Assembly (NCBI GenBank): GCA_965242965.1
Contig: OZ251518.1
Location: 5,440,001-5,504,000 of the forward strand
Source: Candidatus Poribacteria bacterium
Lineage (GTDB): Bacteria > Poribacteria > WGA-4E > WGA-3G
DNA length: 64,000 nucleotides
Direction: 5' to 3'
The notes beneath the pieces are model-generated. The model was not told the origin of the DNA and searched no databases. It saw nothing but the letters and a program-made list of their open reading frames with translations. This document shows positions 13,900 to 40,820 of the stretch, piece by piece. The stretch's first letter is position 1; the number at the start of each line of letters is the position of its first letter. The translations under genes and the position numbers were made by a program.

Positions 13900-14769
13900 T
13901 TGATGACAGCAGATATACGGAGAGAAATGTTCACCGACAGAAACCCTAATCGAACGCCTTGCGAGCAACGAAAAATCCCGTGTCAATTAGCCGCCTTTGA
14001 TTTAGATGGCACCCTCTTAAACAGCGAACATGAAGTCCCCGCGGCGCACCGCGATGCGCTTCGGGCACTCGTTGAAAACGATGTGCTTGTCGTCCTCATC
14101 TCTGGCAGGATGCACCGTTCTATCCAACCGATTAGCGATGCGCTCGGGTTAGCGAACCCGATTATCTCCTATAACGGCGCGATGGTGAAGCACGCGACTA
14201 CGGGGGAAGTGTATCACCACACGCCTGTCCCGGCGGACGCGGCGATGGCAATCGTGAACGAGTGCATCACGCGGGATTTGCATCTCAACTACTGCTTGAA
14301 CGACGAACTCTATGTCGCAGAGCATAACGCATGGAGCGCGCTCTATGAACACCGAACGGGTGTCCCTGCGACACCGGTAGGCGATTTGCGCGAATTGGCA
14401 GGCGAAACGCCGACGAAGATGTTGATTATCCACGCGCCGGAAGAATTGCCGACGTTGCTGAACTATTTCAAGACGACTTATGGTGAGGAACTTTACGTCA
14501 CGCAAACACAGGCGGAGTATATTGAGTTCATGAATCCGGCAGTGACGAAGGGACGTGCCCTCACCGCGCTCGCCGCGCAGTTTGACATTCCGATGGAGAC
14601 GGTGGTAGCGTTCGGGGATAGTTATAACGATGAGACGCTGCTCAGTGCGGCAGGTTTTGGTGTGGCGATGGGCAACGCTGTTGCGCCTATTAAGGCGTGT
14701 GCTGATTACATCACCGGCACGAACGATGAGAACGGGGTATCGCAAGCGATTTGGGAGTTGATTCTCTGA
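13900..14769 (+). CDS. Cof-type HAD hydrolase (start uncertain)
   Basis: FDLDGTLL, SGR, KG, FGDSYND motifs. Confidence 0.9.
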   Translation: MMTADIRREMFTDRNPNRTPCEQRKIPCQLAAFDLDGTLLNSEHEVPAAHRDALRALVENDVLVVLISGRMHRSIQPISDALGLANPIISYNGAMVKHATTGEVYHHTPVPADAAMAIVNECITRDLHLNYCLNDELYVAEHNAWSALYEHRTGVPATPVGDLRELAGETPTKMLIIHAPEELPTLLNYFKTTYGEELYVTQTQAEYIEFMNPAVTKGRALTALAAQFDIPMETVVAFGDSYNDETLLSAAGFGVAMGNAVAPIKACADYITGTNDENGVSQAIWELIL

Positions 14770-14776
14770 TGTGACA

Positions 14777-15295
14777 CCGTAGCGCGAGGGCCTGTCCCTC
14801 GCGTTTTGGGGTTGATTCTGTGCCCACCGTAGCGCGAGGGCCTGTCCCTCGCGATGTGATAATATCGCGAGCGATGCGGGAGTTCATCTTGTGTTCCGCC
14901 GTAGCGCGAGGGCCTGTCCCTCGCGATGCGCTGGTATCGCGATCTGGCTTTGCGGGGGACAGGCCCCCGCACTACGTATCTGCGGGAGTTCATCCTGTGT
15001 GTTCCCGTAGCGCGAGGGCCTGTCCCTCGCGATGCGCTGGTATCGCGATCTGGCTTTGCGGGGGACAGGCCCCCGCACTACGTATCTGCGGGAGTTCATC
15101 CTGTGTGTTCCCGTAGCGCGAGGGCCTGTCCCTCGCGATGTGCTAGTATCACAAGCGGGCTTTGCGGGGGACAGGCCCCCGCACTACGTATCTGCGGGAG
15201 TTCATCCTGTGTTCCGCCGTAGCGCGAGGGCCCGTCCCTCGCGATGCGCTGGTATCACGAGCGGGCTTTGCGGGGGACAGGCTCCCGCACTACGG
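14777..15295. repeat. tandem array of paired inverted REP palindromes (BIME-like, ~106-bp period)
   Basis: Repeated CCGTAGCGCGAGGGCCTGTCCCTCGCG ... GCGGGGGACAGGCCCCCGCACTACG with near-identical linkers. Confidence 0.85.
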
Positions 15296-15334
15296 ACCTG
15301 GGGGAGGTTCATGTCCGGTGGCACCCTCCCTGTC

Positions 15335-19533: not shown

Positions 19534-19724
19534 ACAAGCAGAACGCACATCCTCCGCTTATCTCCAAAACCGGCTCGCTTGTCCCTCGCGATGTTTACTG
19601 TGCCGTTTTCCCGTAGCGCGAGGGCCTGTCCCTCGCGGGCTTACTGTCCCGCTTGTCCGTAGCGCGAGTGCCTGTCCCTCGCGATGTTTACGGTGGGGAC
19701 ATGCCTCAACCCTACATTTACCAA

Positions 19725-21892: not shown

Positions 21893-22858
21893 ATGGGATA
21901 TAACGATGGCAGGAAACAGTTGGAGCGGATTCTCAAGCTAGCCAACCTCCTCCAGAAATCACCATTGAGAGTCCGAGTTCTGGCTGAGCGTTTCGACGTT
22001 CATGTCACGCGTATCTACGACGATATAAAGATTCTTGAGAAGTTCTTCGTTGTGGAAAAGGAGCGGGCGCGCTATTGGATTAAGACTGAACGTCCGCGTC
22101 CGCATCCAGAAATCACGAAACAAGAGTTCAATGCTTTAACGGCTGCAGTTGAGGCTGTGAAGGGCGCGCCTTTTGAGAATCGCCTCAAACGCGTATTAGC
22201 AAAATTTGATGAACCCCTCGCCGCGCGCATCCGGATTGAAATTGAGAGAGAGGCGCAGATTTCGGTGAAGATCAAAGCCGGAAACCGCCATGATGAGGTT
22301 GAGGGACATTTTCGCACGTTGGAGAAGTCTCTTTACCTGCAGCAGGCGGTGCGCGCTATGTATCAGCCCGGTGGCAAAACGGAGACAGTTGCACACGTGC
22401 TTCATCCGTATGCCATCTTCTTCCGGAAGGAAGATTGGTATTTAGAGGCGCGCTCCAATTTATCGGAGAACGCGTCGCTCACCTTCAAAATCCTCCGTTT
22501 CCGGGAAATTGAACTGCTAGATGCGTCGTTTGAGCGTCCTGCGGCATTTTCATTAGCAGCGAATCTTGCGTCGCGCTGGGAGTTGTTTAGCGGTGAACCT
22601 ACCACCGTGCTCCTCAAAATTGCCTCGCACAAAGCGTATCTAGTTGAGGAGAAGGAGCGTCACGCTTCTCAGGAGATTGTGGAGCGTTGCGCGGACGGTT
22701 CGGTAGTCGTGCGGTATCACGTGCCGCCGGAGGAATTCACGTTTTGGGTATTGAGTTTGGGGGACGCGGCGGAGATTTTGGACCCGCCAGAATTCCGTTC
22801 GGAGGTTGCGGCAATAGTGCAGCGGATGCACGCCGTGTATTTTGCGGATGGCGAGTAG
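21893..22858 (+). CDS. HTH-WYL-WCX transcriptional regulator, CRISPR-adjacent
   Basis: N-terminal HTH (TRIYDDI), HPYAIF..DWYL, FKILR, LGDAAEILDP. Confidence 0.9.
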   Translation: MGYNDGRKQLERILKLANLLQKSPLRVRVLAERFDVHVTRIYDDIKILEKFFVVEKERARYWIKTERPRPHPEITKQEFNALTAAVEAVKGAPFENRLKRVLAKFDEPLAARIRIEIEREAQISVKIKAGNRHDEVEGHFRTLEKSLYLQQAVRAMYQPGGKTETVAHVLHPYAIFFRKEDWYLEARSNLSENASLTFKILRFREIELLDASFERPAAFSLAANLASRWELFSGEPTTVLLKIASHKAYLVEEKERHASQEIVERCADGSVVVRYHVPPEEFTFWVLSLGDAAEILDPPEFRSEVAAIVQRMHAVYFADGE

Positions 22859-22930
22859 GTGAATTGGGCTCGGGGAGGCTTTGGTTTGATAAAGCCCGGA
22901 GCCTTCTTGGGCCAATTCGCGATTTTTTTC

Positions 22931-22959
22931 TTGACTTTTGCGGTTGAATATGGTATCAT
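22931..22959 (+). promoter_or_regulatory. sigma70 promoter for the crRNA-like RNA
   Basis: TTGACT-17 bp-TATCAT with extended TG; no ORF follows before the next promoter. Confidence 0.7.
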
Positions 22960-22974
22960 ATTAAACATCGATAG

Positions 22975-23064
22975 AAGCCGCTCGATTGCGAGATTGAAAA
23001 ATTTGGATTTTCGTATGCTACAGCCCCGAATTTCCTATAAGAATCTCAAGCGTGAGATGGATTT
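22975..23064 (+). ncRNA. crRNA-like mini-array (degenerate repeat - short spacer - degenerate repeat)
   Basis: AAGCcgCTCGATTGCGAGATTGAAAa matches the 3' part of the array repeat; the second copy keeps a hairpin ATCTCA-AGCG-TGAGAT; the spacer from 23001 matches 23113-23135. Confidence 0.8.
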
Positions 23065-23074
23065 GATTTTTTCC

Positions 23075-23103
23075 TTGACATTCCGCTGAAAATGTGTTAT
23101 AAT
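23075..23103 (+). promoter_or_regulatory. consensus sigma70 promoter of the DUF3800 gene
   Basis: TTGACA-17 bp-TATAAT with extended TG. Confidence 0.85.
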
Positions 23104-23152
23104 TAAGATGTCATTTGTATTTATAGTATGTTACACGAAAAAAAGGAGGAAA

Positions 23153-23749
23153 ATGAGAATCAACTTTAAACGAACGACAGCGGGGACAAAACGAATTGAG
23201 TTCTACGTTGACGAATCCGGGCAAGATACTCGAGGAGAGTTGTTCATCGTCGCCGGCGTGGCAGTAAAAAACAGCGATGAGCTCCGCCAGCATTGCGTGT
23301 CCCTTGAAAGGACTTCGGGGAAAGGTAAAGTGAAGTGGGCAAGCGCCGAAAGAACAAGGCGTTTGGCTTACCTACGCACCGCAATCTCAGATGCCTCCTC
23401 TTTCGGGGCCACTATATTCTACAGCGTTTTTCGTAAAACCACAGATTATGATGGCGCGACAATTGAAGGCGTTGCGCGAGCCATGCGTCGTTTGTCAACT
23501 CGCAATTCCTCGGTTTTTGTCTACGTTGATGCCCTGGGAGGCGAAAAGTGCCGCGAATACGGAACCCGTTTGCGAAAACTCGGATGTTCTCTCAAACGGG
23601 TGCGCGGATGTTCAGATGAAAACGAACCGCTCATCAGGTTAGCAGATGCCGTGGCAGGAGCAGCTGCGGAATTGATTAAATACGATTCCGAAGACCTGGG
23701 TGAGATTTTCTCGCAAGCCAAACAGCAAGGCACCATTGTTGAACTTTAA
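23153..23749 (+). CDS. DUF3800 family protein (RNase H-like fold)
   Basis: AAGGAGG RBS then MRINF; N-terminal YVDESG and C-terminal SDENEPLIRLADAVAG fit the DUF3800 signature. Confidence 0.8.
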   Translation: MRINFKRTTAGTKRIEFYVDESGQDTRGELFIVAGVAVKNSDELRQHCVSLERTSGKGKVKWASAERTRRLAYLRTAISDASSFGATIFYSVFRKTTDYDGATIEGVARAMRRLSTRNSSVFVYVDALGGEKCREYGTRLRKLGCSLKRVRGCSDENEPLIRLADAVAGAAAELIKYDSEDLGEIFSQAKQQGTIVEL

Positions 23750-23752
23750 AAC

Positions 23753-23961
23753 AGAAAACCACCCCCGCGTCAGGGGGTGGGCAACCTATTCTCCCGGCCG
23801 GCCGGAAGACAGCTCAGCATACGCAATAGTCTTCGGCTGCTATTTTACTTCTGATAAAGGGTAGAATACCACCCTGGCGAGAGGGTGGGCAACCTATTCT
23901 CCCGGCCGGCCGGAAGACAGCTCAGCATACGCAATAGTTTTCGGCTGCGATTTTACTTCTG
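23753..23961 (+). ncRNA. two tandem ~100-nt structured RNA-like units downstream of DUF3800
   Basis: 23753-23853 and 23863-23961 are near identical; differences concentrate in hairpin 1 and keep pairing. Strand inferred from the upstream gene. Confidence 0.65.
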
Positions 23962-24191
23962 GTATTAAAATTATACCCTATTCCGCGCGAAAAGTCAAGA
24001 AAATTCCGCGAAATCTGACATTTTCGTAAAAAAAGACCGGGTTTTTTGATTTTTCAGGTCGATTTTTTTTGATTTTTGCGTAAAACGCTAAATTCTTGTG
24101 GTATAATTAAAGCAGATTGATAATCGGTTGCATGTTTGCAAGGTTGCTGCTATAATGAACAGCAAACCAATGCAATCGGAAAGGAGACATC

Positions 24192-27083
24192 ATGGCAAGA
24201 CAGAAATCCGGAGTGGAGGAGTTCTGGTTGTCACTCGGTATCGGTTCCGGGCGTGACGACATCTTCTGCGCTTATGTAAACGAAATCGCCAATCGGAAAC
24301 TGCGCGCCTATCAGGAAATCATCCAATACGGCGCGAAGGCGGGAGAATCGCTCTATCTCCATATCCTCAACGGGATTTTCGTTCTGGAACGGTTACGTCC
24401 ACGCTTGGAATTGGATGACGTTGAAGTCCAAGTGTTGTTCAGTGCCTTCAGCGTCCATGACATGAACAAACTTAACGAGTTTCAGAGCGTGAAGCGTTCG
24501 TTCAATTATCTGGCCAACGCAACGAATGTCAGTGCGGTGTTGACAGAACTTGAGATGGAACGGTTCTTCCCGGATTGGGAAGATTACCTGAAAGACATTG
24601 AGGTGCTTGTCCGCGCCCACTCGCGGTTTCACAACGTCTACGACGAAACCCTCGCTCTGGACTACGCTCCGTATTCCCTGTGCAGGGACAGGATTTTGAA
24701 CTATCTTGTCCCGATTATCCAAGCGATAGATGTCATCGATCTATCGAAAACATTGGAGGAACGTGCAAAGAAAGGAGACTTCCTCCGCACGCTCAACCCG
24801 ATTTTCGATGATGCGCAGTACCGGTTCGTCTACCATAAAGTCAGCGAGCAGCGCGGCATTTTGACGAACCTCATCCATAACGAAATTGCGGCGTACCTTG
24901 AGAAAGAAAAACAGTTGTTGCCGCTCCTATTTTATCCGGACGGGGTCGCGTACCTCGTTGAGCGGCACCGCGATGTCCAGATGACGAACGACGAAATCGC
25001 GACGGTTGGCAACCGGATTGTCGCTAGTGTTGAATCAGAAACCAGCAAAGGATTCAGCAAGTTTATCAAAGGCAGTCCGGCAGGTATCAAGATTGATGAG
25101 AAATGCCTCGCACTCGGGCTACCTTTTGAATGCCTCTGGAACGAGGTGCGAAACATCATCAGCGAGCGGCAGTATGTCGCAAACGCAAAAGTGGATGAAA
25201 TGAACGCTAAGTGTCGGGCACGACTGGAAAAGGTTCGCGAGAAGTCAGGGGAGCCGATGCAGCTCTCTCAGCCTCCGGACTTTGAGAATTCAGGTGGGCA
25301 GCTGAGTTTATTTAACTTAGATGCTCCGGAATCGAGCCTTGTGAATCAGGTCCTGTCGGAGAAAACTCCTTTGCTGCCTCCCGATGATGCAGCTCTGAGG
25401 TTGGGGGAGTTGGTTCGGACATACTACATCTTCCTGAACAAACACTTTGCTCACACCCTTACGGATGCTTGGAAGCATGTTTACAATCTACTTGCGTTGC
25501 CATCGCAAACCGAGGATGCAAATTGTCGTCCGCGATACGAACTTTTTGATGCCCTCTACGACCGGGGGTACATCATCGGGCGAGACCTTTACAACAGCGG
25601 CAGAAACTTTGATGAAATCTATGAGTTGATTGTCCAAGATGGGACAATTCTCATGGAGACTGCACAAACCGAAAGCGAATTCGGAATTCTCGCGGATTAC
25701 GTTCGCAAGTACGTTGATTTTGACTTCACTGTCGGCAGAGACCGGCACTTCGCGACACATCTGGAACGTTATGTAAAGGATAATCACTCGCAGTGTAGCA
25801 CTTGCGGCTCAGAATTTGATACGGCTCTCTGGATGAAGGCAGATGTGCCGCCGAATATCAAGGTGCAGCAATTTTCAAATCGGCTGCAGGGAGGCTCATC
25901 GCGGGAACCGAAACGTCGGGTTTGTAGCATTTGCCGAACGCAATACATGCTGGATAAACTCTGTTACAGGGTTGGAGGAAAAACGGCTATGTTTTTTATC
26001 CACCTGTATCCGCCATCGTTTTTCACCGATGTGTTAATCGACGCTTTTCGGGCGGCACAAGAGAGATTCCGCAACCCGGATTTACCATCGGTATTTCTCA
26101 AGACAGACGATGTGCTCCGGCACTATCGAGAACAGACTCAATTAGAGTTGAAGTTTTCTCATACGAAGGTTAATGGGAACCCGTTGCCGAAATTTTCCGA
26201 GGCTCTTGGCAATATTTTAACAGTGCCTGTTAACGCGCCGGGGGATAACCACACAGAGAGGGTTTTGTTTGCTATCGAAAACGCCCTACTTTATCAACGT
26301 TTTCTGGGGTGCCGGGCGGTGTTAACTGATTCATCAATCCCCCTCTTTTCGGGAGACCAATTCAGGCATTTTTTTATCGACCATATTCCATCTGGATTTC
26401 GCGGGTGGTTACCGGAAAATGACATGGATAGTGCCGAAACCCAAAAGGTTTTTGCACAATTGCTCAGACTCCATGAGATCCGTGAGAAGATCGGAAGCAT
26501 TAATGCGGCAGATCTCGTCCGATTGATTCGGTGCCTGAATTACGATGTGCTTGAACTTTACTACGTAACCCATCGAATGATTAAACGCGAACATGCCGGA
26601 AATGAACGCCGGCAATTCACAACCGTCCGCGGCACGGCAAACCTTCTTGCTGATGTCGTGGCACAGAAAGGAGGCGAACCGATTATGCCTTACCTCAAGG
26701 AGCTCGCGCGTATCGCGTGGCAGGGGCAACTGAAAGGCGATAGTCTTGAGGACAACGCGCTCGCGAAACCTCTTGATGTGGCGTTTGACAGCCTAGAACG
26801 GTGGCAGCCTGATCGCGAAACCGCAGAGGAAGCGCGAGCCATCATGTCAAAAGAGGTTGCCCGCGCCATTAAGCGCGTCAACAAGCAGTTCTTCGGCGCG
26901 AAAAAGTTGGAGAACATTTCACAGTTTGTGACGGTGCTGTTCGATCAGATTTACCAAAATGTCTACCATGGCAATCTGCTTGAGCTGCTTGAAAACCGTA
27001 GACGGATCCGCGCCGGGTATCTCTACTTCATCACGGAGATGATTCCCAAGCGCGAGAAAGAGAAGGAGGAACAACAGTCATGA
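24192..27083 (+). CDS. cas10d: type I-D large subunit Cas10d/Csc3 with HD nuclease domain
   Basis: SLYLHILNG, VHDMNK, C-x2-C...C-x2-C zinc finger with FSNRL; upstream of csc2/csc1. Confidence 0.9.
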   Translation: MARQKSGVEEFWLSLGIGSGRDDIFCAYVNEIANRKLRAYQEIIQYGAKAGESLYLHILNGIFVLERLRPRLELDDVEVQVLFSAFSVHDMNKLNEFQSVKRSFNYLANATNVSAVLTELEMERFFPDWEDYLKDIEVLVRAHSRFHNVYDETLALDYAPYSLCRDRILNYLVPIIQAIDVIDLSKTLEERAKKGDFLRTLNPIFDDAQYRFVYHKVSEQRGILTNLIHNEIAAYLEKEKQLLPLLFYPDGVAYLVERHRDVQMTNDEIATVGNRIVASVESETSKGFSKFIKGSPAGIKIDEKCLALGLPFECLWNEVRNIISERQYVANAKVDEMNAKCRARLEKVREKSGEPMQLSQPPDFENSGGQLSLFNLDAPESSLVNQVLSEKTPLLPPDDAALRLGELVRTYYIFLNKHFAHTLTDAWKHVYNLLALPSQTEDANCRPRYELFDALYDRGYIIGRDLYNSGRNFDEIYELIVQDGTILMETAQTESEFGILADYVRKYVDFDFTVGRDRHFATHLERYVKDNHSQCSTCGSEFDTALWMKADVPPNIKVQQFSNRLQGGSSREPKRRVCSICRTQYMLDKLCYRVGGKTAMFFIHLYPPSFFTDVLIDAFRAAQERFRNPDLPSVFLKTDDVLRHYREQTQLELKFSHTKVNGNPLPKFSEALGNILTVPVNAPGDNHTERVLFAIENALLYQRFLGCRAVLTDSSIPLFSGDQFRHFFIDHIPSGFRGWLPENDMDSAETQKVFAQLLRLHEIREKIGSINAADLVRLIRCLNYDVLELYYVTHRMIKREHAGNERRQFTTVRGTANLLADVVAQKGGEPIMPYLKELARIAWQGQLKGDSLEDNALAKPLDVAFDSLERWQPDRETAEEARAIMSKEVARAIKRVNKQFFGAKKLENISQFVTVLFDQIYQNVYHGNLLELLENRRRIRAGYLYFITEMIPKREKEKEEQQS
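26685..27083 (+). CDS. probable Cas11d small subunit from an internal start in cas10d
   Basis: AAAGGAGG at 26667-26674 before in-frame ATG (MPYLKELARIAW); internal Cas11d is established for type I-D. Confidence 0.65.
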   Translation: MPYLKELARIAWQGQLKGDSLEDNALAKPLDVAFDSLERWQPDRETAEEARAIMSKEVARAIKRVNKQFFGAKKLENISQFVTVLFDQIYQNVYHGNLLELLENRRRIRAGYLYFITEMIPKREKEKEEQQS

Positions 27084-28066
27084 GTATTCTTGACAACTAC
27101 ACCGGATCCATGGTTGGGCAATACGAAAACTTCCCGCAGAGCCGCTATTTAACCTTGGTGGTGCTGCGGAAGGCGGAATCCGAGATGATTTTCCGCACCG
27201 AAGGTTCCGGCGAGGGACTGACACGCGATTCTGTCCACGCAGGACTTCAAAAACGAGAGATTATCTCTCGCGTGACGATTAGCAAGCGGAAACAGACAGC
27301 TGTTGAACGTCGCGCCGGCCGCGAACTTTTGCGGCAGCACAACCTGCTGTTCTATGCGGCGAACAAAGGAAAACGCGAAGAAAGTGCCGATAACATCTGT
27401 GCATTGAACCGCAACAAGCCGTGCGGGATTTGCGTAGACTGCATGATTTACGGTTATGCCGTTGGCGGTGGCGGCGCGCAGAAATCGCGCGTCATTACGG
27501 ACGACGCGTTCAGCATTCTGCCTTACCAAACGGTAACGGCAAAACGAACGTTCAACGCGCTTTACGATAACAACACCATGCGCGATCCTGTGACCGGCAA
27601 GCCGTCTTCCAGCATCCAAGAGGACGAGTATGTCAAGCCTGAAACATTGTTTATTGACATGCAAACCCTCAAGGATTTGACTGCGAATGAGATTCGCTAC
27701 GTCATCGCGAACGTGCTTCGGAGTCGCCGCTACGGAGCCATCTCGTCACGGCTGGGCAAGATGCGGAACACTATCGTCGGAGCGATTTTTAGCGATTGTG
27801 AGCTCTTCAGCAATCTGGAGTTGACACAGCGCGTTTACGACCTGCTCGGTGAACAGGGACGGCAATTTCCACTTGATGAGACGAAAGTCAAGACGGCAAT
27901 TGCCGCGGCGGTAGAAGGACTTGCCGGCGAAGTCATCGGGACGCAAAAACCAATTTCTGAAGAAGAGTTAACCAAACTCATCAAGGAGATTCGGCAGACA
28001 TTCGCATCACCAACTGACGTGAAAGAACTGCTAGAGGCGATTACCGCGCTCTATCCGCGTGGGTAA
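27080..28066 (+). CDS. csc2: type I-D Cas7/Csc2
   Basis: FRTEG, KRKQTAVERR, CGICVDCMIYGYA, KSRV, RYGA. Confidence 0.92.
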   Translation: MSILDNYTGSMVGQYENFPQSRYLTLVVLRKAESEMIFRTEGSGEGLTRDSVHAGLQKREIISRVTISKRKQTAVERRAGRELLRQHNLLFYAANKGKREESADNICALNRNKPCGICVDCMIYGYAVGGGGAQKSRVITDDAFSILPYQTVTAKRTFNALYDNNTMRDPVTGKPSSSIQEDEYVKPETLFIDMQTLKDLTANEIRYVIANVLRSRRYGAISSRLGKMRNTIVGAIFSDCELFSNLELTQRVYDLLGEQGRQFPLDETKVKTAIAAAVEGLAGEVIGTQKPISEEELTKLIKEIRQTFASPTDVKELLEAITALYPRG

Positions 28067-28112
28067 GTGAGACATGGGGTAGGCATCGCCTACCCTATGC
28101 GGGAGGTATCAC

Positions 28113-28829
28113 ATGCATATTTACCGTTGTGAATTCCAACTCATGGAGAACCTCTTTTTCGCCAGTCGCGAGGTGAACAACTTTTTTCAAACCGAGCCGG
28201 TTATCGGTAACTACGCACTCGCTTACGCGCTCGGGTTGTGTCATGCTGGTTATCACAACAGCGGCGACATCACCTATGCCGAAGATTTGGAGCAGCTCAA
28301 CGAAGCAGGTGTCTATATTACGCCGGGGACGTTGACTGGGAAAACCCGCTTCACGGTGGTGCAATTCAACGCCCTTTCAGACTCGTATTGGTATCAGATG
28401 GAACAGAACGCCATTTCGGTGGACCGGGGGTGCATTTTCAACCCAAGATTGAAAGCACGCGCGGCGAATTTTCCGCAGATTGGACGGCTCAAACTGCTCT
28501 CAATTGGAAACACGGGCGTTTTCTACGTGACAAGCCAAGAAACCGTCCGGATTCCGCGTTACATCCGCCTCGGAAAATTCATGAGCAAGACGAAAATCTC
28601 CGCTCAAAAACAGCACTATCGGGAAACGAAGGCGGAAGACGTATCCTATCCGGATTATCTCAATCCGAACGATCTGCCGCCGGAGACAGAAATTGGCATG
28701 TTTGATTTGCTCAATATTCGTCCGACACCGCTCATTCGCCATGTTCAGTTGTCAGGCGATTTCTATCAGTTAGCGGATGAGGCGAAAACGCGATTGCCCG
28801 CGGGAATGCGGTTTTATACCGATTTTTAG
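28113..28829 (+). CDS. csc1: type I-D Cas5/Csc1
   Basis: LFFASRE, NYALAYALG, NFPQIG, PRYIRLGKFMSK. Confidence 0.92.
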   Translation: MHIYRCEFQLMENLFFASREVNNFFQTEPVIGNYALAYALGLCHAGYHNSGDITYAEDLEQLNEAGVYITPGTLTGKTRFTVVQFNALSDSYWYQMEQNAISVDRGCIFNPRLKARAANFPQIGRLKLLSIGNTGVFYVTSQETVRIPRYIRLGKFMSKTKISAQKQHYRETKAEDVSYPDYLNPNDLPPETEIGMFDLLNIRPTPLIRHVQLSGDFYQLADEAKTRLPAGMRFYTDF

Positions 28830-28917
28830 ATTGACTGCCAGTTTTACCGTAGGGTAGGCATCGCGCTGCTAAATTGTGGTGCAATGCACACCCTACCTAT
28901 TCTATGGAGGCATCCCC

Positions 28918-31239
28918 ATGCCAGAGATAACTGTCACCCTAAATGCCGGGTATGAAAAAATTAACCCGACGAACCAATTTGACTTTAGGCATCCGCCGCT
29001 CTACCATCAACACCGGACTTATGATGCGCTGAAGACGAACGAGCTCGTCATCAACACCTACAACACGGGCACGGGCAAAACACTCGCCTCGCTGCTCCGG
29101 CTGTTCGATCTCGCGGGCGAAAACGTTTTGTTCATCGCCCCGACGAACGAACTCATCCACCAGCATGCGGATGACATTCGCGAGTTTGTTACCGAACACA
29201 GACTGAATTTCGTCGTTGCTGAGGTTACGGGACAAAAGTTGCGTGAATGGCAGGTGGTTGACGCTCCGGGATATCGTGTGAGAAATGCCAGAAAGTTGCA
29301 CGAGCTCATCCAAAACCCGCGCGACTACTTTCCCGAGTTGACACGGCGAACGCCGCTCATCCTCGTCACAAATCCAGATCTCTTTTACCTCTGTTTTTAC
29401 ACTGTCTACTCGCCGTTGGATAGTGCAAACCTTTTCCGCGATTTTCTTGGGGAATTTGACTACGTCGTCATTGACGAGTTTCACTACTACAACGCTAAGC
29501 AGTTTGCCAATTTCCTGATGTTTTTCATGTTGTCAAAAGAGTACGGCTACTTTGAAAAGGGACGGAAAATCTGTCTGCTGTCGGCTACTCCTGATGAGAA
29601 GGTCCTCACCTATCTTGAAAAGATTGGGCTCACCTACGCGCTCGTTAGTTCCGACAATGAACCGGCGGAGAGCAATGCTTATGGGAAGATACAGACCCTC
29701 GCCACGCTGGAATTGACGGTGCATAGTGCCAAGATGCACGAGGTGCTCAAGGCGCAACCTGATAGCATCGGGGCCTTACTTGATTCAGGGATGGACGGTG
29801 CTATCATCAGTAGTTCTCTCCGAACTATTAATGAGATTAAACGGGCCCTTCAACAAGTGGGTCTGCGCGAAAAACTCGGTTTAATCACGGGGGCTGTCAG
29901 CACGCGCGAGCGTCGTGTGGCGACAAAGCAGTTTCCGTGCGTCCTTGCAACCCCCACGGTAGACATCGGATACAACTTCACCAAGGCGGGTAAATCGCGT
30001 CAGAACATCGATTTCGTCTGCTTTGACGCGCTCTATGGCTCTGAGTTTACCCAACGCGTCGGCAGAGCCGGCCGGTTATTGGGCAAACCTGACACCAGTC
30101 ACCTGAGCATCGGCCACGCCTTTGTCCAAGGAAAACTCTATTCGCAGTTGGACGCGGGAGCGAGTTACGAACGGAGAGAGTTTGCCCAAATTGTGAAAGA
30201 GGCATTGGGCGAGGATAACCGTTTTTACCACTACATCCAGTCCTATGCTATTCTGGAAGCGTTCTATCCGCTTTATGAGCATTTCAAGCGAACCTCGGAA
30301 GAACGCCAAGGGCGCGTCCGTGAGATTTTTGACACACTGAAGGAAGTCTTTGCGCCGGAGAGTGATGTCACCTTCGACGAACTTGCGAAAAAGTTACGGT
30401 GGCATTCCACTTACGAAAAAATTATTGAGGCGCACCGTAAGAATGCTTACGACGAATTCATTCAACAGGCACAGGAAAAAGCGGCGTGGAGTTATTTGGA
30501 GCATCAGAGTTGGATCCAGGGCAAATTGGACGAGTTCCGTCTTGTCCCACCTCCACAATTGAACAAGGCAATCAAAGGTTTCCTCAAACGCCGCGCCAAC
30601 CGAGAACAAGTCGTTGAATACGCGAAACAGAAATTTCATCCGATTCAGTCGCTCTTCAACTTTCGGAACTCGGAGATAGGGATTCGGTGCGGTATCTATG
30701 ACCCGAGCCATCTCTTTCAAAACACTGCCAAGCATACCGAGTATGATCTCTTTCACATCTTGGCACACTGCGAATTCACAGTGCTAGATAAGAATGAGTA
30801 TCACAACCGCACCGGCGACCGGGGAAATTACTGCGAATGCTTCGTGCACGTTCGCGATTTCAAAAACCCACCGGCTCGCGTCCAATTTGAATACGATGCC
30901 AGCGGGGTTGATAGGGAAACTTTTGAACAGCAACATTGTTGGGGACCTACCGCGCTGAAAGGATTGCGGTTGGGATTAACCCAGAACGGATATGTTCCAC
31001 TGAAAATTCAAGGTATTGTGGCAGAACGGCATCTCACCTGCCTGCTGTCAAAGATGGAAAATCGCTATGCTCTCAACCGCATTCTTGAGACGAAGCGACA
31101 AGTCGCTTATCCGTTGCACGTAACCTTCGCCGATGGACGACAGGCGGAGTATAAACTCATCTTCGGATCGCAGGCGTTCCTCATTCATGCGGAATTGCAA
31201 GGAAAATCGAAAGAGAAGCAACGTTCGGTAAACCCATAG
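28918..31239 (+). CDS. cas3: type I-D helicase Cas3' (no HD domain)
   Basis: TGTGKT, DEFH, SAT, QRVGRAGR; GGAGG RBS before MPEIT. Confidence 0.9.
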   Translation: MPEITVTLNAGYEKINPTNQFDFRHPPLYHQHRTYDALKTNELVINTYNTGTGKTLASLLRLFDLAGENVLFIAPTNELIHQHADDIREFVTEHRLNFVVAEVTGQKLREWQVVDAPGYRVRNARKLHELIQNPRDYFPELTRRTPLILVTNPDLFYLCFYTVYSPLDSANLFRDFLGEFDYVVIDEFHYYNAKQFANFLMFFMLSKEYGYFEKGRKICLLSATPDEKVLTYLEKIGLTYALVSSDNEPAESNAYGKIQTLATLELTVHSAKMHEVLKAQPDSIGALLDSGMDGAIISSSLRTINEIKRALQQVGLREKLGLITGAVSTRERRVATKQFPCVLATPTVDIGYNFTKAGKSRQNIDFVCFDALYGSEFTQRVGRAGRLLGKPDTSHLSIGHAFVQGKLYSQLDAGASYERREFAQIVKEALGEDNRFYHYIQSYAILEAFYPLYEHFKRTSEERQGRVREIFDTLKEVFAPESDVTFDELAKKLRWHSTYEKIIEAHRKNAYDEFIQQAQEKAAWSYLEHQSWIQGKLDEFRLVPPPQLNKAIKGFLKRRANREQVVEYAKQKFHPIQSLFNFRNSEIGIRCGIYDPSHLFQNTAKHTEYDLFHILAHCEFTVLDKNEYHNRTGDRGNYCECFVHVRDFKNPPARVQFEYDASGVDRETFEQQHCWGPTALKGLRLGLTQNGYVPLKIQGIVAERHLTCLLSKMENRYALNRILETKRQVAYPLHVTFADGRQAEYKLIFGSQAFLIHAELQGKSKEKQRSVNP

Positions 31240-31251
31240 GAGGTAAATTCC

Positions 31252-32085
31252 ATGCCAATCAGCACCGTCCTCTCTCTCATACCAGAAACCAACGTGACGC
31301 TACGCCCAACAATGGGACACCACGCACACGCCGCGTTTCTCTCCATCATGAAAGAAGCTAACCGCGAACTTGCCGAGGAACTCCACGCGCAAGCCGCACA
31401 GAAACCTTTCACTGTCTCACCCTTGATGGCGAAAGGCACGCCGCGCGGAAAAAATCAACGCCACATCCGCGCCGGCACCGAATGCAAACTCCGATTCACG
31501 TTCCTTGATGACGAACTCTTCGCGCACTTCGGTGTCGCTTTCTTGACGTTCACCATCCCGCCGATTCAGTTGGGGAACGCAAAGTTTCAGGTGAAAAAGT
31601 GGGTAGCACACGCATCGGATGCGGAAAAGTGGGGCGGCAACGCCACTTACGCTCAACTCATCCAAAACGCATCCGACGATACCCACATCCGACTCCGCTT
31701 CTATTCGCCAACCGCCTTCCGCACGCTGACACCGCGCGGACAGAAAACGCAAAACCACACCCAGATCGATCTGGTGCGCTGTTATCAGAGTTGGATAAAC
31801 AAGTGGAACGCTTTCTCACCTGTCAAATTGGAGAAAACTGAGTTCCTCGCATTCATCGCCGAACACGCGCGGCTATCGCAAGCCGAAACGAAAACACGTG
31901 CCCTCAACTTCGGACGACACACCGAAATCGGATGCGTAGGGCACTGCACATGTCGCCTCGTTTCTGAGGACCCGCAACATCTTCGCCACATTCTGATCGC
32001 CAACTGTTTAGCCGATTTCGCCTTCTATTGCGGCACCGGCTACAAAACCACGATGGGGATGGGGCAAACCAAACGCCTTCGTTAG
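31252..32085 (+). CDS. cas6: CRISPR pre-crRNA endoribonuclease Cas6
   Basis: KPFTVSPL, FYSPTAF, C-terminal GTGYKTTMGMG loop. Confidence 0.93.
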   Translation: MPISTVLSLIPETNVTLRPTMGHHAHAAFLSIMKEANRELAEELHAQAAQKPFTVSPLMAKGTPRGKNQRHIRAGTECKLRFTFLDDELFAHFGVAFLTFTIPPIQLGNAKFQVKKWVAHASDAEKWGGNATYAQLIQNASDDTHIRLRFYSPTAFRTLTPRGQKTQNHTQIDLVRCYQSWINKWNAFSPVKLEKTEFLAFIAEHARLSQAETKTRALNFGRHTEIGCVGHCTCRLVSEDPQHLRHILIANCLADFAFYCGTGYKTTMGMGQTKRLR

Positions 32086-32305
32086 TCATAAGATTTTATG
32101 GGGGACGGTTTTCTCGCGCTACAGGCATCGCGGGGGACAGGCCCCCGCGCTACGATAATAAAAGAAAAGGCATGGCGGGGATGGCACGAATTTTACAGCC
32201 CCCGCGCGACCTTCCGGTAGGAGAGACCTCCTGGTCTCGATGCAATAGTTGTGCCGGTAGACGAGCTCTCCCGGTCTCGATGCAATAAAAGAAAAGGAGA
32301 CAAAA

Positions 32306-33943: not shown

Positions 33944-34029
33944 GAGAGCCCTCCCGGTCTCGATGCCCCGGGTAGGCGCGCCCTCCCGGTCTCGATGCTC
34001 CCAATCCGGATACCGAAAGGAGCAACCCG

Positions 34030-34302
34030 ATGCTTTACACCGTCGCTTACGACATCACCGATGACAACCGCCGTGCCAAAGTCGCGAAAATCCTTCAGGA
34101 CTTTGGCACGCGCGTCCAATACAGCCTCTTTGAATGCAACACCGACAGGCGCGCGTTCCTCCGATTACAGCATCGGTTGGAAGCGGAGATCGATCTGGCA
34201 GAGGATACCATCACGTTTTATCACCTCTGTGCGGCTTGCGAAAAACAGATCCACCGCCTCGGACTAAAAAAAGGGCTTGACAAAAAATCGTATATAGTGT
34301 AA
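34030..34302 (+). CDS. cas2: CRISPR-associated endonuclease Cas2
   Basis: VAYDITDD.RR..VAK.L..FG.RVQYSLFEC. Confidence 0.95.
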   Translation: MLYTVAYDITDDNRRAKVAKILQDFGTRVQYSLFECNTDRRAFLRLQHRLEAEIDLAEDTITFYHLCAACEKQIHRLGLKKGLDKKSYIV

Positions 34303-34514: not shown

Positions 34515-36795
34515 CCTGAAATGACAAGCATCTCGATTACGAGATTGAAACTATAATCTAAGTGTGGTTCGAGATGCCTCTCAAACGACCTGAAATGACA
34601 AGCATCTCGATTACGAGATTGAAACTATACTCTCATCAGTGATGCCGCGACGCTTTAGGTATTCCTGAAATGACAAGCATCTCGATTACGAGATTGAAAC
34701 TGTGAAACCGGGGGCGTTGCACATGTTTGAACCTGAAATGACAAGCATCTCGATTACGAGATTGAAACGAAGCTCGCGCAGATGGCGCAGTTCGATGGGA
34801 CGTTCCCTGAAATGACAAGCATCTCGATTACGAGATTGAAACATGAACGTGGGTGCGGCCATAATAAATGAGCAGGACCTGAAATGACAAGCATCTCGAT
34901 TACGAGATTGAAACTGACATGGTAGGAAGCCTCGCAGCGGACTTGCAAGAGGTCCTGAAATGACAAGCATCTCGATTACGAGATTGAAACGAATTACGGG
35001 TTCGACGAGACATTGCAACTGCCACAAAGCCTGAAATGACAAGCATCTCGATTACGAGATTGAAACTTCGGCAGGCGATTGTGCTCATGTTCGGTTAAGA
35101 GCTCCTGAAATGACAAGCATCTCGATTACGAGATTGAAACGAACTACACGGCACATGAGGTGTGCATTTTCCCGACGGCCCTGAAATGACAAGCATCTCG
35201 ATTACGAGATTGAAACTCGCCGAAATACTCGCGTTGCGCTTTCAGGATACGTGTCCCCTGAAATGACAAGCATCTCGATTACGAGATTGAAACCCGTATG
35301 CACGGTATTTGGAAGGCGGCACCAAGCACATGCCTGAAATGACAAGCATCTCGATTACGAGATTGAAACTATTAGAAACCTAATCTTGCCACCAAACTTT
35401 AGGGTGAGCCTGAAATGACAAGCATCTCGATTACGAGATTGAAACTCCTATAGGTATTGCGCGCCAAAGGATTTTCATGTGCCAACCTGAAATGACAAGC
35501 ATCTCGATTACGAGATTGAAACGGTATAGGGTGCAGATGCCCCCGTTCGTTGCTTGAAATACCTGAAATGACAAGCATCTCGATTACGAGATTGAAACAG
35601 TGTCAAGCACCTTGCTCACCTTGAACGTCTCCACGACCTGAAATGACAAGCATCTCGATTACGAGATTGAAACGTCCGCAATAGCGTCGAACCCCATTCC
35701 CGTGAACCGCGCACCCTGAAATGACAAGCATCTCGATTACGAGATTGAAACATTACAAACAGCCTACGCCGAGATCAGCAGTTATCCTGAAATGACAAGC
35801 ATCTCGATTACGAGATTGAAACTGTCAATGGCTTGATGATTACGCGCTGCGAACGCCGGTGCCTGAAATGACAAGCATCTCGATTACGAGATTGAAACCA
35901 GGTAGGCGAGTGTTGCGCCTGTAATGAAGGCGATGACCTGAAATGACAAGCATCTCGATTACGAGATTGAAACTGTGCCGTGAGCATCCGTGCAATGCCC
36001 CGCAGGGCCCGCCTGAAATGACAAGCATCTCGATTACGAGATTGAAACTTACAGACGCTCCAACGGCGTTTAGACTCTCATCCGCCTGAAATGACAAGCA
36101 TCTCGATTACGAGATTGAAACAAGGAGGTTCGGGGGCGGGGAGCTAAGAAGGAGTTTAAACCTGAAATGACAAGCATCTCGATTACGAGATTGAAACGCA
36201 TCCACCTCAGCCGCCAGCCGATGCGCCATCGACCCCTGAAATGACAAGCATCTCGATTACGAGATTGAAACGGAAGCATGGGTTGCCTGAACGGGTAAAG
36301 CAACGCATAACCTGAAATGACAAGCATCTCGATTACGAGATTGAAACGCTGCTGATGGCGACTACGTTGTGTATCTGCGCGCCCCTGAAATGACAAGCAT
36401 CTCGATTACGAGATTGAAACCATCCGATGCTAGGCACGACGTGGAAAAAGATGAAGCGTGACCTGAAATGACAAGCATCTCGATTGCGAGATTGAAACGA
36501 CGTGATGGTGGGTATGCGGGAGTATGCCCGCATGACGCCCTGAAATGACAAGCATCTCGATTGCGAGATTGAAACGCTTTTCAGGCGAAGCAGACCGTGA
36601 GCTACTTTTTCCTGAAATGACAAGCATCTCGATTGCGAGATTGAAACGCGGATGCAACGCTGCAGGGGAGTGTCCTCTCTTGTACCCTGAAATGACAAGC
36701 ATCTCGATTGCGAGATTGAAACCAGAATCTCCGTGCACCGAGGCGACAGCCCGACACGCCTGACCTGAAAAGCATCTCGATTGCGAGATTGAAAC
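34515..36795 (+). CRISPR. CRISPR array, 31 repeats / 30 spacers by manual count; 37-bp repeat CCTGAAATGACAAGCATCTCGATTACGAGATTGAAAC
   Basis: Identical repeats with unique ~31-41-nt spacers; leader 34303-34514 after cas2; last five repeats carry an ATTG loop; terminal repeat degenerate. Confidence 0.98.
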
Positions 36796-40519: not shown

Positions 40520-40596
40520 ATTGTGTGATGCATCCTTTTGCGTGTGAATTTGGTTGTGTTTATTGTAGCACGCGCGCGGGATATTTGCAAATATGG

Positions 40597-40820
40597 AGCA
40601 GGATTTCCAAGATTATGGAGCAGGATTTTCGAGATTTTCAGGATTAAGATTTTCAAGATTTCCGGGATTAGGAAGCGGGATTTTCAAGATTCTCAGGATT
40701 AGGATTTCCAAGATTTCTAGGATTAGGAAGCGGGATTTTCAAGATTCTCAGGATTAGGATTTCCAAAATTATGAAGCAAGATTTTCAAGATTTCCGGGAT
40801 TAGGATTTTCAAGATTTCCA
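40597..40820. repeat. low-complexity array of ~9-bp units (e.g. CARGATTTT)
   Basis: Repeated CAGGATTTT/CAAGATTTC/CAGGATTAG units; shorter tracts elsewhere in the window. Confidence 0.8.

What the first reader, a model, noticed from the sequence alone, without database searches (positions are those of the whole stretch)
22931..23961. Candidate new system: CRISPR-repressed DUF3800 protein + tandem ncRNA cassette embedded in a type I-D locus
Seen: between the WYL gene and cas10d lies a self-contained unit: promoter, crRNA-like mini-array, consensus promoter carrying the matching target, DUF3800 gene, and two structured ~100-nt repeats. Established: crRNA-like RNAs (CreA/CreR type) guide type I Cascade to repress promoters of toxins or cas genes, and DUF3800 genes associate with structured RNA motifs of unknown function. 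Inference: this is an RNase H-fold ribonucleoprotein toxin or defence effector kept low by I-D Cascade and released when Cascade is lost or blocked by anti-CRISPRs. I do not recall this combination being described.
Basis: partly seen in the sequence, partly recalled or inferred. Interest (0 to 1): 0.92.

Follow-up and report, generated by a model that had tools for sequence, protein, structure and literature searches.

The report
Cascade-silenced nuclease gene with partner RNA
A CRISPR locus of a sponge symbiont carries a decoy guide RNA aimed at the promoter of a neighbouring nuclease gene that travels with its own small structured RNA, most likely a poison kept silent while the CRISPR machinery works.

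Summary
Between the WYL regulator and cas10d of a type I-D locus (Candidatus Poribacteria) lie a promoter, a degenerate repeat-spacer-repeat mini-array, a consensus promoter, a DUF3800 gene and two 108-nt structured units. The mini-array spacer matches a site with a GTC PAM that starts 7 nt after the -10 box of the DUF3800 promoter (9 of 9 seed positions; 0 of 2000 shuffles). In 15 related loci spacer and target co-vary, and mismatches fall at positions 6 and 12.

Two corrections. The repeats are small RNA genes on the opposite strand, with their own promoter and terminator. The DUF3800 gene plus convergent RNA is a module found in many phyla and matches no Rfam family.

The closely related DUF3800 genes never lacked the RNA. 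The RNA often survives loss of DUF3800. I read this as a CreA/CrePA-like Cascade-repressed toxin whose RNA acts as antitoxin or partner. No experiment or expression data support this.

The general scheme, I-D mini-arrays aimed at cargo promoters, was predicted by Shmakov et al. in 2023. It is therefore a new variant of a known kind. The new parts are the DUF3800 cargo (two subfamilies), the RNA family and the decay asymmetry.

The parts
21893..22858 (+). WYL/WCX regulator gene (context, left border)
   Evidence: Pfam WCX E 3.1e-14 and WYL E 1.4e-9. PADLOC WYL E 6.9e-26.
22931..22959 (+). P1, promoter of the mini-array
   Evidence: TTGACT, 17-nt spacer, TATCAT; 10 of 12 with TG. A promoter is seen in this place in related loci, by eye.
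22964..23000 (+). psiR1, degenerate CRISPR repeat: hairpin 22981-22992 and 8-nt handle 22993-23000
   Evidence: 2 mismatches in the 3' 20 nt; the only match outside the array. 14 of 37 mismatches overall. A comparable repeat is found in 15 related loci.
23001..23044 (+). psi-spacer (seed 23001-23010)
   Evidence: Matches the target at 23113 at 9 of 9 seed positions, 0 of 2000 shuffles. Co-varies with the target across loci.
23045..23064 (+). psiR2, second degenerate repeat: hairpin with a compensated stem, then a degenerate handle
   Evidence: Read from the sequence. A hairpin followed by GAGAT is kept in all 14 loci printed.
23075..23103 (+). P2, promoter of DUF3800
   Evidence: TTGACA, 17-nt spacer, TATAAT; 12 of 12 with TG.
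23110..23112 (+). PAM GTC
   Evidence: The type I-D PAM is GTN or GTH according to review PMC10212523 (passages).
23113..23136 (+). Partially matching protospacer over the expected transcription start and 5' UTR
   Evidence: Positions 1-5 and 7-10 match, followed by a 1-nt insertion; 20 of 24 identical when gapped.
23153..23749 (+). DUF3800 gene, 198 aa, preceded by AAGGAGG
   Evidence: PF12686 E 2.4e-9. E21, D126, E156 and D165 are invariant and D20 nearly so in 12 homologues.
23747..23856 (-). RNA unit 1, ending in a terminator hairpin (23780-23759) and a U-run next to the DUF3800 stop codon
   Evidence: Covariance model R1, 122.5 bits. Terminator-like site. Structure.
23857..23964 (-). RNA unit 2, next to promoter P3, with a weak U-run
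   Evidence: Covariance model R1, 115.9 bits. Alignment A1.
23970..23998 (-). P3, promoter of the RNA units
   Evidence: TTGACT, 17-nt spacer, TATAAT; 11 of 12. A matching minus-strand promoter follows the last unit in the related loci printed, including the non-CRISPR loci.
24192..27083 (+). cas10d (context, right border), first gene of the type I-D operon
   Evidence: NCBIfam TIGR03174 Cas10d/Csc3, E 2.8e-42. Csc2, Csc1 and Cas3' equivalogs follow.
34515..36795 (+). CRISPR array, 31 repeats of 37 nt (context)

Best explanation
This is a Cascade-repressed toxin module of the CreA/CrePA kind, built into a type I-D locus.

1. P1 transcribes a mini-array. Cas6 would cut it at the two retained repeat hairpins to give a crRNA-like RNA with the normal 8-nt handle.
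2. Loaded into I-D Cascade, this RNA would recognise the GTC PAM and pair with about 10 nt (16-17 nt in relatives) of the template strand exactly at the start site of the consensus promoter P2.
3. That much pairing is enough to bind and block transcription, and too little for a full R-loop and Cas3' recruitment. DUF3800 stays off while functional Cascade is present.
4. DUF3800 is a stand-alone RNase H-fold nuclease and probably toxic when made.
5. It travels with a convergent, separately promoted, structured small RNA (two tandem copies here). I take this RNA to be its antitoxin or neutralising partner.
6. If Cascade is lost or blocked, P2 fires. Its transcript has no terminator before the RNA genes. 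It would collide with their transcription and pair with their RNAs, so the balance tips towards free DUF3800 and growth arrest.

**Shown:** the anatomy, the PAM, the spacer-target co-variation, the RNA structure and strand, and the linkage and decay patterns.

**Inferred:** processing of the mini-array, Cascade binding, repression, toxicity, the antitoxin role and the switch.
For: **Repeat and target in the window.**
- The repeat-like element is unique outside the array.
- GT PAM plus 9 of 9 seed positions; 0 of 2000 shuffles reach this.

**Across relatives.**
- A first set of 14 loci with a psiR1 was scored. 11 of 14 have a GT PAM with a 9 of 9 seed. Scoring each spacer against its own upstream region gives 169 of 196, against a mean of 156.3 for permuted pairings; 0 of 100000 permutations reach 169.
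- With L060 added the set is 15 loci. Spacer position 4 takes three states and positions 3 and 7 two states each, and the target matches in 15 of 15.
- In the 8 loci without an indel, positions 1-5, 7-11 and 14-16 match 8 of 8. Position 6 matches 3 of 8, position 12 matches 4 of 8, and positions 18-20 match at most 3 of 8. Every sixth base is flipped out in Cascade (PMC10212523 passage).
- PAMs: GTT 11, GTC 3, GCT 1.

**Linkage of the mini-array to a cargo.**
- Among CRISPR-linked loci with an apparently intact DUF3800 (L064 may be frameshifted), 15 of 17 carry the mini-array. Among non-CRISPR loci, 0 of 5 do.
- Mini-arrays with different spacers match the promoters of other cargo genes: L040 and L041 at 9 of 9 with 0 of 1000 shuffles, and L042 at 8 of 9 with 15 of 1000.
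- The L042 cargo, and its homologue in L131, is a second DUF3800 subfamily.

**Toxin reading.**
- The DUF3800 domain of Adt1 cleaves mRNAs and causes dormancy (preprint passages).
- DUF3800 is the effector of type VII retrons (PMC7736814 passages).
- In L019 an Antitox_RHH gene overlaps the DUF3800 start. L020 lies among ThsB-TIR, SLATT and AAA_15 genes.

**RNA.**
- 98% of cells paired, 14 pairs with compensatory changes, 0 of 500 shuffles.
- 69 G.U cells against 6 A.C cells on the minus strand.
- 18 of 18 closely related loci with room carry the RNA. In contrast, 6 loci keep the RNA with no DUF3800 and 5 keep it with a broken one.
- Four genomes (92-94% complete) have no PF12686 hit at all yet keep the RNA, with scores of 102-120 bits and 96.6% of cells paired.
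Against: - There are no expression data. No run on record as RNA holds the stretch.
- There is no experimental evidence for repression, toxicity or RNA binding.
- In the window itself pairing is limited to about 10 nt before a 1-nt insertion. The ungapped 14-position score is not significant on its own (137 of 500 shuffles).
- L025 keeps an intact DUF3800 next to cas genes after deletion of the mini-array, so derepression cannot always be lethal.
- L055 has a GCT PAM.
- L024 has N in place of the first catalytic D.
- Well-kept orphan RNAs in genomes without any DUF3800 fit a function of the RNA beyond neutralising DUF3800 as well as they fit an antitoxin remnant.
- The loci are related, so the permutation figures overstate independence.
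Confidence: 0.6

Rival explanations
1. The RNA is an obligate cofactor, substrate or activating ligand of DUF3800, not an antitoxin. Examples would be a tRNA-like RNA or a scaffold of a ribonucleoprotein. The pair would be a defence effector that Cascade merely keeps at a low level. The guide-mediated repression stands; only the role of the RNA differs.
For: - Weinberg et al. found 11 unrelated structured motifs next to DUF3800 genes and proposed a demanding shared function (PMC5737381 passages).
- Adt1 is switched on by an RNA fragment.
- Skipping-rope RNA, which Weinberg et al. link to DUF3800 through its associated genes, is a tRNA mimic (abstract and passages).
- The single-stranded core (GCCGAA..ACU and UAGG) is conserved across phyla.
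- Orphan RNAs stay intact.
Against: - A cofactor should decay once its enzyme is gone, and the enzyme should sometimes survive loss of the cofactor. The observed pattern is the opposite: 0 of 18 closely related DUF3800 loci lack the RNA, and 11 loci hold the RNA with DUF3800 absent or broken.
- The units have no variable guide-like segment.
Confidence: 0.2
2. The RNA acts in cis as an antisense regulator, as in type I toxin-antitoxin pairs with 3' overlap. Convergent transcription and duplex formation with a read-through DUF3800 mRNA would control mRNA stability, with no protein binding involved.
For: - The orientation is convergent, with the RNA 3' end at the stop codon, in all 18 close loci. 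All 30 matches at E up to 0.01, in 29 of 60 distant loci, are on the opposite strand and mostly next to the stop codon.
- No plus-strand terminator was found after DUF3800.
Against: - Pure antisense function needs no conserved three-way junction. Here 25 of 29 pairs co-vary across phyla and the loop nucleotides are conserved.
- Orphan units without any DUF3800 mRNA to pair with keep their structure.
Confidence: 0.12
3. The circuit is a CreR-like expression control, not an addiction or guard module. DUF3800 and its RNA would assist the type I-D system itself, for example in RNA processing or turnover, and the mini-array would tune their dose to free Cascade.
For: - The module sits inside the cas locus next to the WYL regulator in 14 of 19 closely related loci.
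- CreR-type autoregulation is known for types I-B, I-E and V-A (abstract).
- Altae-Tran et al. suggested a role in crRNA biogenesis or degradation for Cas12-linked DUF3800.
Against: - None of the 60 distant DUF3800 loci, 29 of which show the RNA at E up to 0.01, had WYL or the I-D cas genes used as queries within 4 kb. 5 closely related loci also lie outside CRISPR loci.
- Many I-D loci have lost DUF3800.
- Unrelated small ORFs can take its place behind the mini-array.
Confidence: 0.05
4. The mini-array is a decayed, functionless repeat remnant. The spacer-target likeness would be a leftover of a local duplication.
For: - P1 and P2 share an 18-nt stretch (D6).
- Spacer and target remain alike beyond the indel, as duplicated DNA would.
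Against: - Co-variation at several positions, mismatches concentrated at positions 6 and 12, and a conserved GT PAM.
- Hairpin and handle are retained while the 5' part of the repeat has decayed.
- Independent spacers match other cargo promoters.
Confidence: 0.03

Closest known systems
CrePA (CreA RNA plus protein toxin CreP, type I-F, Acinetobacter) and CreTA (type I-B, I-F)
   Same: Degenerate repeats flank a spacer with partial, PAM-flanked complementarity to the promoter of an adjacent toxic gene inside a cas locus. The logic is addiction or anti-anti-CRISPR guarding (abstract and outline; review passages).
   Different: - The subtype is I-D. The 2025 review I searched does not contain the term I-D.
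- The cargo is an RNase H-fold DUF3800 protein, not a KilA-N protein or a small RNA.
- The cargo brings a second, structured RNA with its own promoter.
- Nothing has been tested experimentally.
Type I-D mini-arrays that regulate cargo genes upstream of cas10d (Shmakov et al. 2023, computational)
   Same: Same subtype, same position (mini-array, cargo, cas10d), targets in cargo promoters, cargo varying between relatives, and toxin-antitoxin enrichment (section 24 read in full).
   Different: The main text does not name DUF3800 or an associated RNA: the paper is not among the 18 papers listed of the 23 that hold the term. Its Figure 6 and Supplementary file 6 could not be seen and may already show such loci.
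DUF3800-associated RNA motifs DUF3800-I to XI (Weinberg et al. 2017)
   Same: A structured RNA next to a DUF3800 gene, on either strand, often with a terminator, and of unknown function (passages).
   Different: No Rfam 15 family matches. The window gave nothing at gathering thresholds, and its 22800-24250 stretch gave nothing relevant at E up to 10. 17 distant loci gave only a tmRNA at gathering thresholds. Here the RNA is tandemly duplicated and the module is wired to CRISPR.
Adt1 (TPR-DUF3800) of Cas12a3/Cas12a2 loci, and the DUF3800 effectors of type VII retrons
   Same: A DUF3800 nuclease domain acts as a growth-arresting effector held inactive until a nucleic-acid-related signal arrives.
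   Different: The protein here is a 198-aa stand-alone domain with no TPR or RT partner. Control is transcriptional, through a guide RNA, with a presumed RNA partner.
Type III toxin-antitoxin systems (ToxIN, CptIN, TenpIN)
   Same: A protein toxin, presumably an RNase, with tandem repeats of a structured RNA (abstracts).
   Different: - The RNA lies downstream and convergent, not upstream on the same strand.
- Each unit has its own terminator.
- The toxin family is unrelated.
- Outside Poribacteria only one match per DUF3800 gene was found.

Membership tests
CreA/CrePA-type CRISPR-repressed toxin module | Ectopic degenerate repeat(s) flanking a pseudo-spacer in or next to a cas operon | tested here: met
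   psiR1 at 22964-23000 and psiR2 at 23045-23064, between the WYL gene and cas10d.
CreA/CrePA-type CRISPR-repressed toxin module | [quoted passage not shown] | tested here: met
   GTC PAM with a 9 of 9 seed, starting 7 nt after the -10 box; 0 of 2000 shuffles. Pairing ends at about position 16-17 in relatives.
CreA/CrePA-type CRISPR-repressed toxin module | Spacer and target co-evolve | tested here: met
   169 of 196 against a permuted mean of 156.3, 0 of 100000 permutations. Positions 3, 4 and 7 vary and match in 15 of 15 loci.
CreA/CrePA-type CRISPR-repressed toxin module | Cascade-dependent transcriptional repression | not testable with these tools
   Needs a reporter assay.
CreA/CrePA-type CRISPR-repressed toxin module | The regulated gene is toxic when derepressed | not testable with these tools
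   Only indirect evidence: the decay asymmetry, the genomic context and the literature.
Type I-D CRISPR-Cas | Cas10d/Csc3, Cas7/Csc2, Cas5/Csc1 and Cas3' of subtype I-D | tested here: met
   All four NCBIfam models matched above their cut-offs (three equivalogs; the Cas3' model is typed 'exception'). Pfam Csc2 E 1.7e-97.
DUF3800 (PF12686) | Match to the family model above the gathering score | tested here: met
   38.5 bits against a cut-off of 21, E 2.4e-9, covering profile positions 2-146 of 149.
DUF3800 (PF12686) | N-terminal DE motif and conserved C-terminal acidic residues | tested here: met
   E21, D126, E156 and D165 are invariant and D20 nearly so in 12 sequences. The Q of the QxxD motif mentioned in PMC7736814 is R here.
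DUF3800 (PF12686) | RNase H-like fold | not tested
The fold is taken from the literature.
Rfam DUF3800-I to XI RNA motifs | Match to one of the curated covariance models | tested here: not met
   The window gave no match at gathering thresholds, and its 22800-24250 stretch none relevant at E up to 10. 17 distant loci gave none at gathering thresholds.
Type III toxin-antitoxin | Tandem RNA repeats upstream of the toxin gene on the same strand, separated from it by a terminator | tested here: not met
   The units lie downstream and are convergent.
Type III toxin-antitoxin | The RNA binds and inhibits the toxin protein | not testable with these tools
   Needs biochemistry or an RNA-protein model.
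Adt1 (TPR-DUF3800) | TPR sensor domain fused to DUF3800 | tested here: not met
   The protein is 198 aa and DUF3800 is its only Pfam hit.

The most novel reading that the evidence does not exclude
The DUF3800 gene with its convergent structured small RNA is a phylum-spanning, RNA-neutralised nuclease toxin: a new class of RNA-antitoxin or abortive-infection module. If so, this would explain what the many DUF3800-associated RNA motifs, unexplained since 2017, are for. Poribacterial type I-D systems would have recruited at least two DUF3800 subfamilies as Cascade-repressed guards. The convergent layout would work as a switch, in which toxin transcription destroys its own antitoxin once Cascade is lost or inhibited.
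Probability: 0.3. Interest if true: 0.8.

Novelty: new variant of a known kind. Interest (0 to 1): 0.62.

Why it matters
- It would be the first type I-D example of a Cascade-repressed protein toxin for which the evidence is co-variation, not a single sequence match.
- It points to a nuclease family, DUF3800, that is only now being recognised as a CRISPR-linked dormancy effector.
- The decay asymmetry (DUF3800 never without the RNA, the RNA often without DUF3800) gives a concrete and cheap hypothesis for the long-unexplained DUF3800-associated RNAs: express the gene with and without the RNA.
- The RNA family itself, with a covariance model, structure and strand, appears to be missing from Rfam 15.
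- The mini-array and promoter cassette with exchangeable cargo is also a natural reporter for type I-D Cascade activity and for anti-CRISPRs against it.

Tried and rejected
- **Rfam.** The whole window at gathering thresholds gave nothing, and its 22800-24250 stretch at E up to 10 gave only microRNA and sRNA noise. 17 distant loci gave only a tmRNA. L042 7800-10600 gave nothing relevant.
- **PADLOC and NCBIfam.** No family for the DUF3800 protein.
- **PDB by profile.** No relative at E up to 0.1.
- **Plasmid and phage collections, by tblastn.** No match.
- **Viral contigs.** A pattern for a psiR1 handle plus seed gave 3 matches, all inside coding DNA without the repeat hairpin, so chance.
- **Expression.** No RNA holder is listed.
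  - Run X14 is only guessed to be RNA. It holds just 23785-23947, the RNA units, as two short contigs. One carries an A-rich tail on the minus-strand 3' side.
  - I treat this as a hint at most, not as evidence.
- **Other targets of the psi-spacer.** None in the window stood out, and none lies in the cas10d promoter.
- **Shared 11-nt stretch.** The psi-spacer and the RNA units share 11 nt with one mismatch (I12 and I13). By my own estimate this is about chance level, and it does not co-vary, judging by eye.
- **RHH partner gene.** It is found only in poribacterial non-CRISPR loci and is not general.
- **Single-sequence folding.** It does not settle the strand, since both strands fold. Co-variation and G.U pairs do.
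  - The Atlas and the earlier findings were closed.
  - Complex prediction was not used because it takes no RNA.
- The test was redone by reading the sequences from the stored files.
Full report
**What is there.** The window comes from a Candidatus Poribacteria genome. The titles of related records say so, and sponge metagenome runs hold the stretch.
- Genes 24192-34300 form a type I-D cas operon. NCBIfam matches Cas10d/Csc3, Cas7/Csc2, Cas5/Csc1, Cas3' and Cas6. Pfam adds Cas4-Cas1.
- A 31-repeat array follows at 34515-36795.
- A WYL/WCX regulator gene lies upstream at 21893-22858.

**The mini-array.**
- P1 (22931-22959) precedes a degenerate repeat. Its last 20 nt differ from the array repeat at 2 positions, one of which is the variant also carried by the five repeats at the far end of the array. 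Apart from the 31 array repeats it is the only match in 64 kb, with 0.00 expected by chance.
- The 5' half of the repeat has decayed: 14 of 37 positions are mismatched. What survives is what Cas6 and Cascade need, the hairpin and the 8-nt handle.
- A second hairpin with a compensated stem and a degenerate handle follows 44 nt later.

**The target.**
- The consensus promoter P2 (12 of 12, extended -10) ends at 23103.
- At 23110-23112 stands GTC. From 23113 the sequence repeats the spacer at positions 1-5 and 7-10. A 1-nt insertion follows, and the likeness then resumes, giving 20 of 24 identical when gapped.
- A GT PAM with a 9 of 9 seed was reached by 0 of 2000 shuffles of the region.
- The ungapped 14-position score of the window alone, 10 of 14, is not significant: 137 of 500 shuffles reach it. 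For this one locus the case therefore rests on the PAM, the seed and the relatives.
- GTN or GTH is the type I-D PAM, and every sixth base is flipped out in the complex (review PMC10212523, passages).

**Relatives.**
- Homologues of the DUF3800 protein occur in 15 of 60 related genomes. A scan of one genome per species confirmed 155 relatives, of which 79 loci were kept.
- Among the 19 closely related poribacterial loci (50% identity or more), 14 lie next to a WYL gene and at least 9 next to cas10d or cas3.
- A mini-array stands in front of DUF3800 in 15 of 17 CRISPR-linked loci with an apparently intact gene (L064 may be frameshifted). L062 has no intergenic space, and L025 has a deletion that fuses P1 to the target region. 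It stands in front of 0 of 5 loci outside CRISPR.
- In the first 14 loci scored, each spacer against its own upstream region totals 169 of 196, against 156.3 for permuted pairings; 0 of 100000 permutations reach 169.
- With L060 added (15 loci), spacer position 4 takes three states and positions 3 and 7 two states each, always matched by the target (15 of 15).
- In the 8 loci without an indel, positions 1-5, 7-11 and 14-16 match 8 of 8 and position 13 matches 7 of 8. Position 6 matches only 3 of 8, position 12 only 4 of 8, and positions 18-20 at most 3 of 8.
- PAMs are GTT in 11 loci, GTC in 3 and GCT in 1.
- This is the signature of a guide that binds without licensing cleavage. The loci are related, so these figures overstate independence.

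**Exchangeable cargo.**
- In L040 and L041 mini-arrays with quite different spacers match GT-flanked sites just after the -10 box of unrelated small ORFs of 57 and 86 aa with no Pfam family. The seed is 9 of 9, with 0 of 1000 shuffles each.
- In L042 the mini-array matches a GTT-flanked site 934 nt downstream at 8 of 9 (15 of 1000 shuffles). The site lies right after the -10 box of a second DUF3800 gene of the classical subfamily: PF12686 E 3.8e-13, with only 24% identity to the window protein over 74 residues.
- Its homologue in L131 also follows a WYL gene and a mini-array with a 9 of 9 GTT target.
- Two DUF3800 subfamilies are thus placed under type I-D mini-arrays.

**The protein.** It is 198 aa, PF12686 at 38.5 bits. 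E21, D126, E156 and D165 are invariant and D20 nearly so in 12 homologues; L024 has N at position 20. I could not model the fold. The literature gives an RNase H fold:
- Altae-Tran et al. 2023 (passages);
- Mestre et al. 2020, where DUF3800 is the effector of type VII retrons (passages);
- the Adt1 preprint, where the domain cleaves mRNAs and causes dormancy (passages).

**The RNA.**
- The two units align with 22 further units from 10 related loci (alignment A1).
- On the strand opposite to DUF3800 they fold into five helices: a closing stem, a stem that encloses two hairpins, and a terminal hairpin followed by a U-run. 98% of cells are paired, 14 of 29 pairs show compensatory change, and 0 of 500 shuffles reach this.
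- Two G.U pairs are conserved (22 and 23 of 24 sequences). In all, 69 cells are G.U against 6 A.C. The plus strand would carry A.C mismatches at those places.
- A near-consensus minus-strand promoter (23998-23970) and a minus-strand terminator at 23780-23759 fit this reading. No plus-strand terminator follows DUF3800.
- A covariance model (R1) finds the RNA in 17 of 61 related genomes, in every locus checked on the strand opposite to DUF3800.
- It finds the RNA in 18 of 18 closely related loci with room at 100-126 bits. It also finds it at E up to 0.01 in 29 of 60 distant loci from Patescibacteria, Chloroflexota, Acidobacteriota, Gammaproteobacteria and Entotheonella. There it is again on the opposite strand and mostly next to the stop codon, with one match per DUF3800 gene.
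- On the model-fitted alignment of 44 sequences, 91.9% of cells pair and 25 of 29 pairs show compensatory change. A GCCGAA..ACU and UAGG core is kept.
- No Rfam 15 family matches.

**Decay pattern and context.**
- The RNA lies between the WYL gene and cas10d without any DUF3800 in 6 loci (L037-L041, L044), and with a truncated gene in 5 (L027, L042, L043, L045, L046). The junctions differ, so there were several separate events.
- Four genomes that are 92-94% complete have no PF12686 match at all. They still keep units of 102-120 bits with 96.6% of cells paired.
- No closely related DUF3800 gene lacks the RNA (0 of 18).
- Outside CRISPR, the gene in L019 is overlapped at its start by an Antitox_RHH gene. 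The gene in L020 lies among ThsB-TIR, SLATT, QueC/TGT and AAA_15 genes.
- On a protein tree the poribacterial clade is one group (100/100). The non-CRISPR copies nest among CRISPR-linked ones and at least 3 changes of context are needed. L074 was left out of the tree for too few columns.

**Mechanism.** I read the unit as a Cascade-repressed toxin.
- The crRNA-like RNA parks type I-D Cascade on the start site of a very strong promoter.
- DUF3800 is the poison.
- The convergent RNA is its antitoxin or neutralising partner.
- Loss or inhibition of Cascade lets P2 fire through the RNA genes, which would also lower and titrate the RNA.
- Only the anatomy and the comparative patterns are shown. Processing, binding, repression, toxicity and the role of the RNA are inferred. 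The rivals differ mainly on the role of the RNA.

**Novelty.**
- CreTA, CreR and CrePA are established for types I-B, I-E, I-F and V-A.
- Shmakov et al. 2023 predicted type I-D mini-arrays that target promoters of cargo, including toxin-antitoxin genes, in front of cas10d (section 24 read in full). The scheme is therefore known.
- DUF3800 has been reported at V-A2, VI-E/VI-F and type III loci.
- My full-text search for 'DUF3800' found 23 papers, of which 18 were listed. No listed title or opened passage links it to type I-D or to mini-arrays. The terms I-D and cargo are absent from the phage crlRNA preprint.
Figure 6 and Supplementary file 6 of Shmakov et al. may show such loci.
- New here: the DUF3800 cargo in two subfamilies, the position-resolved co-variation, the RNA family with its strand and structure, its spread across phyla, and the toxin-like decay asymmetry.

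Noticed in passing
L042:9564-10271 (G017) and L131 (G024): A second, classical DUF3800 subfamily (PF12686 E 3.8e-13) also lies behind a type I-D mini-array whose spacer matches a GTT-flanked site after its -10 box.
   Followed up: partly
L040:7704-7874 (-) and L041:8784-9041 (+): Small ORFs of 57 and 86 aa with no Pfam family take the cargo position behind mini-arrays with their own matching spacers. They may be further toxins.
   Followed up: partly
L042 just after 10271; L130 and L132 upstream of the gene; L023, L024, L038, L040 and L043 between P3 and the cas10d promoter: A conserved G+C-rich hairpin with a T-run lies convergent at the stop codon of the classical DUF3800 gene. Orphan copies persist in front of cas10d, so it may be a second DUF3800-linked small RNA. 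Seen by eye only.
   Followed up: no
window 36462-36795 and 22981-23000: The last five array repeats carry the same A-to-G change in the hairpin loop as psiR1.
   Followed up: no
window 6276-6460, 14746-15312, 19580-19691, 45702-45822, 53134-53470, 61006-61220: Many tandem and dispersed copies of a G+C-rich palindromic element, resembling REP sequences, are spread through the window.
   Followed up: no
window 40579-40820 and 48442-48690: Arrays of short A+T-rich repeats with periods of about 9-55 nt lie in intergenic DNA.
   Followed up: no
window 24125 and 23765-23768: Metagenome contigs of related strains diverge from the window right after the cas10d promoter (loose ends at 24125). Some carry 55 extra letters in the loop of the unit 1 terminator.
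   Followed up: no
L024 (G031 C14), DUF3800 residue 20: The first conserved aspartate is N in this otherwise intact, mini-array-linked copy, so the enzyme may be inactive.
   Followed up: no
L025 (G022): An intact DUF3800 lies next to cas genes, but a deletion has removed the mini-array and joined P1 to the target region.
   Followed up: partly
L028, L029 and about 20 further loci with 31-38% identity: A more distant DUF3800 subclade, also present in Poribacteria, shows no match to RNA model R1. It may have a different partner RNA.
   Followed up: no
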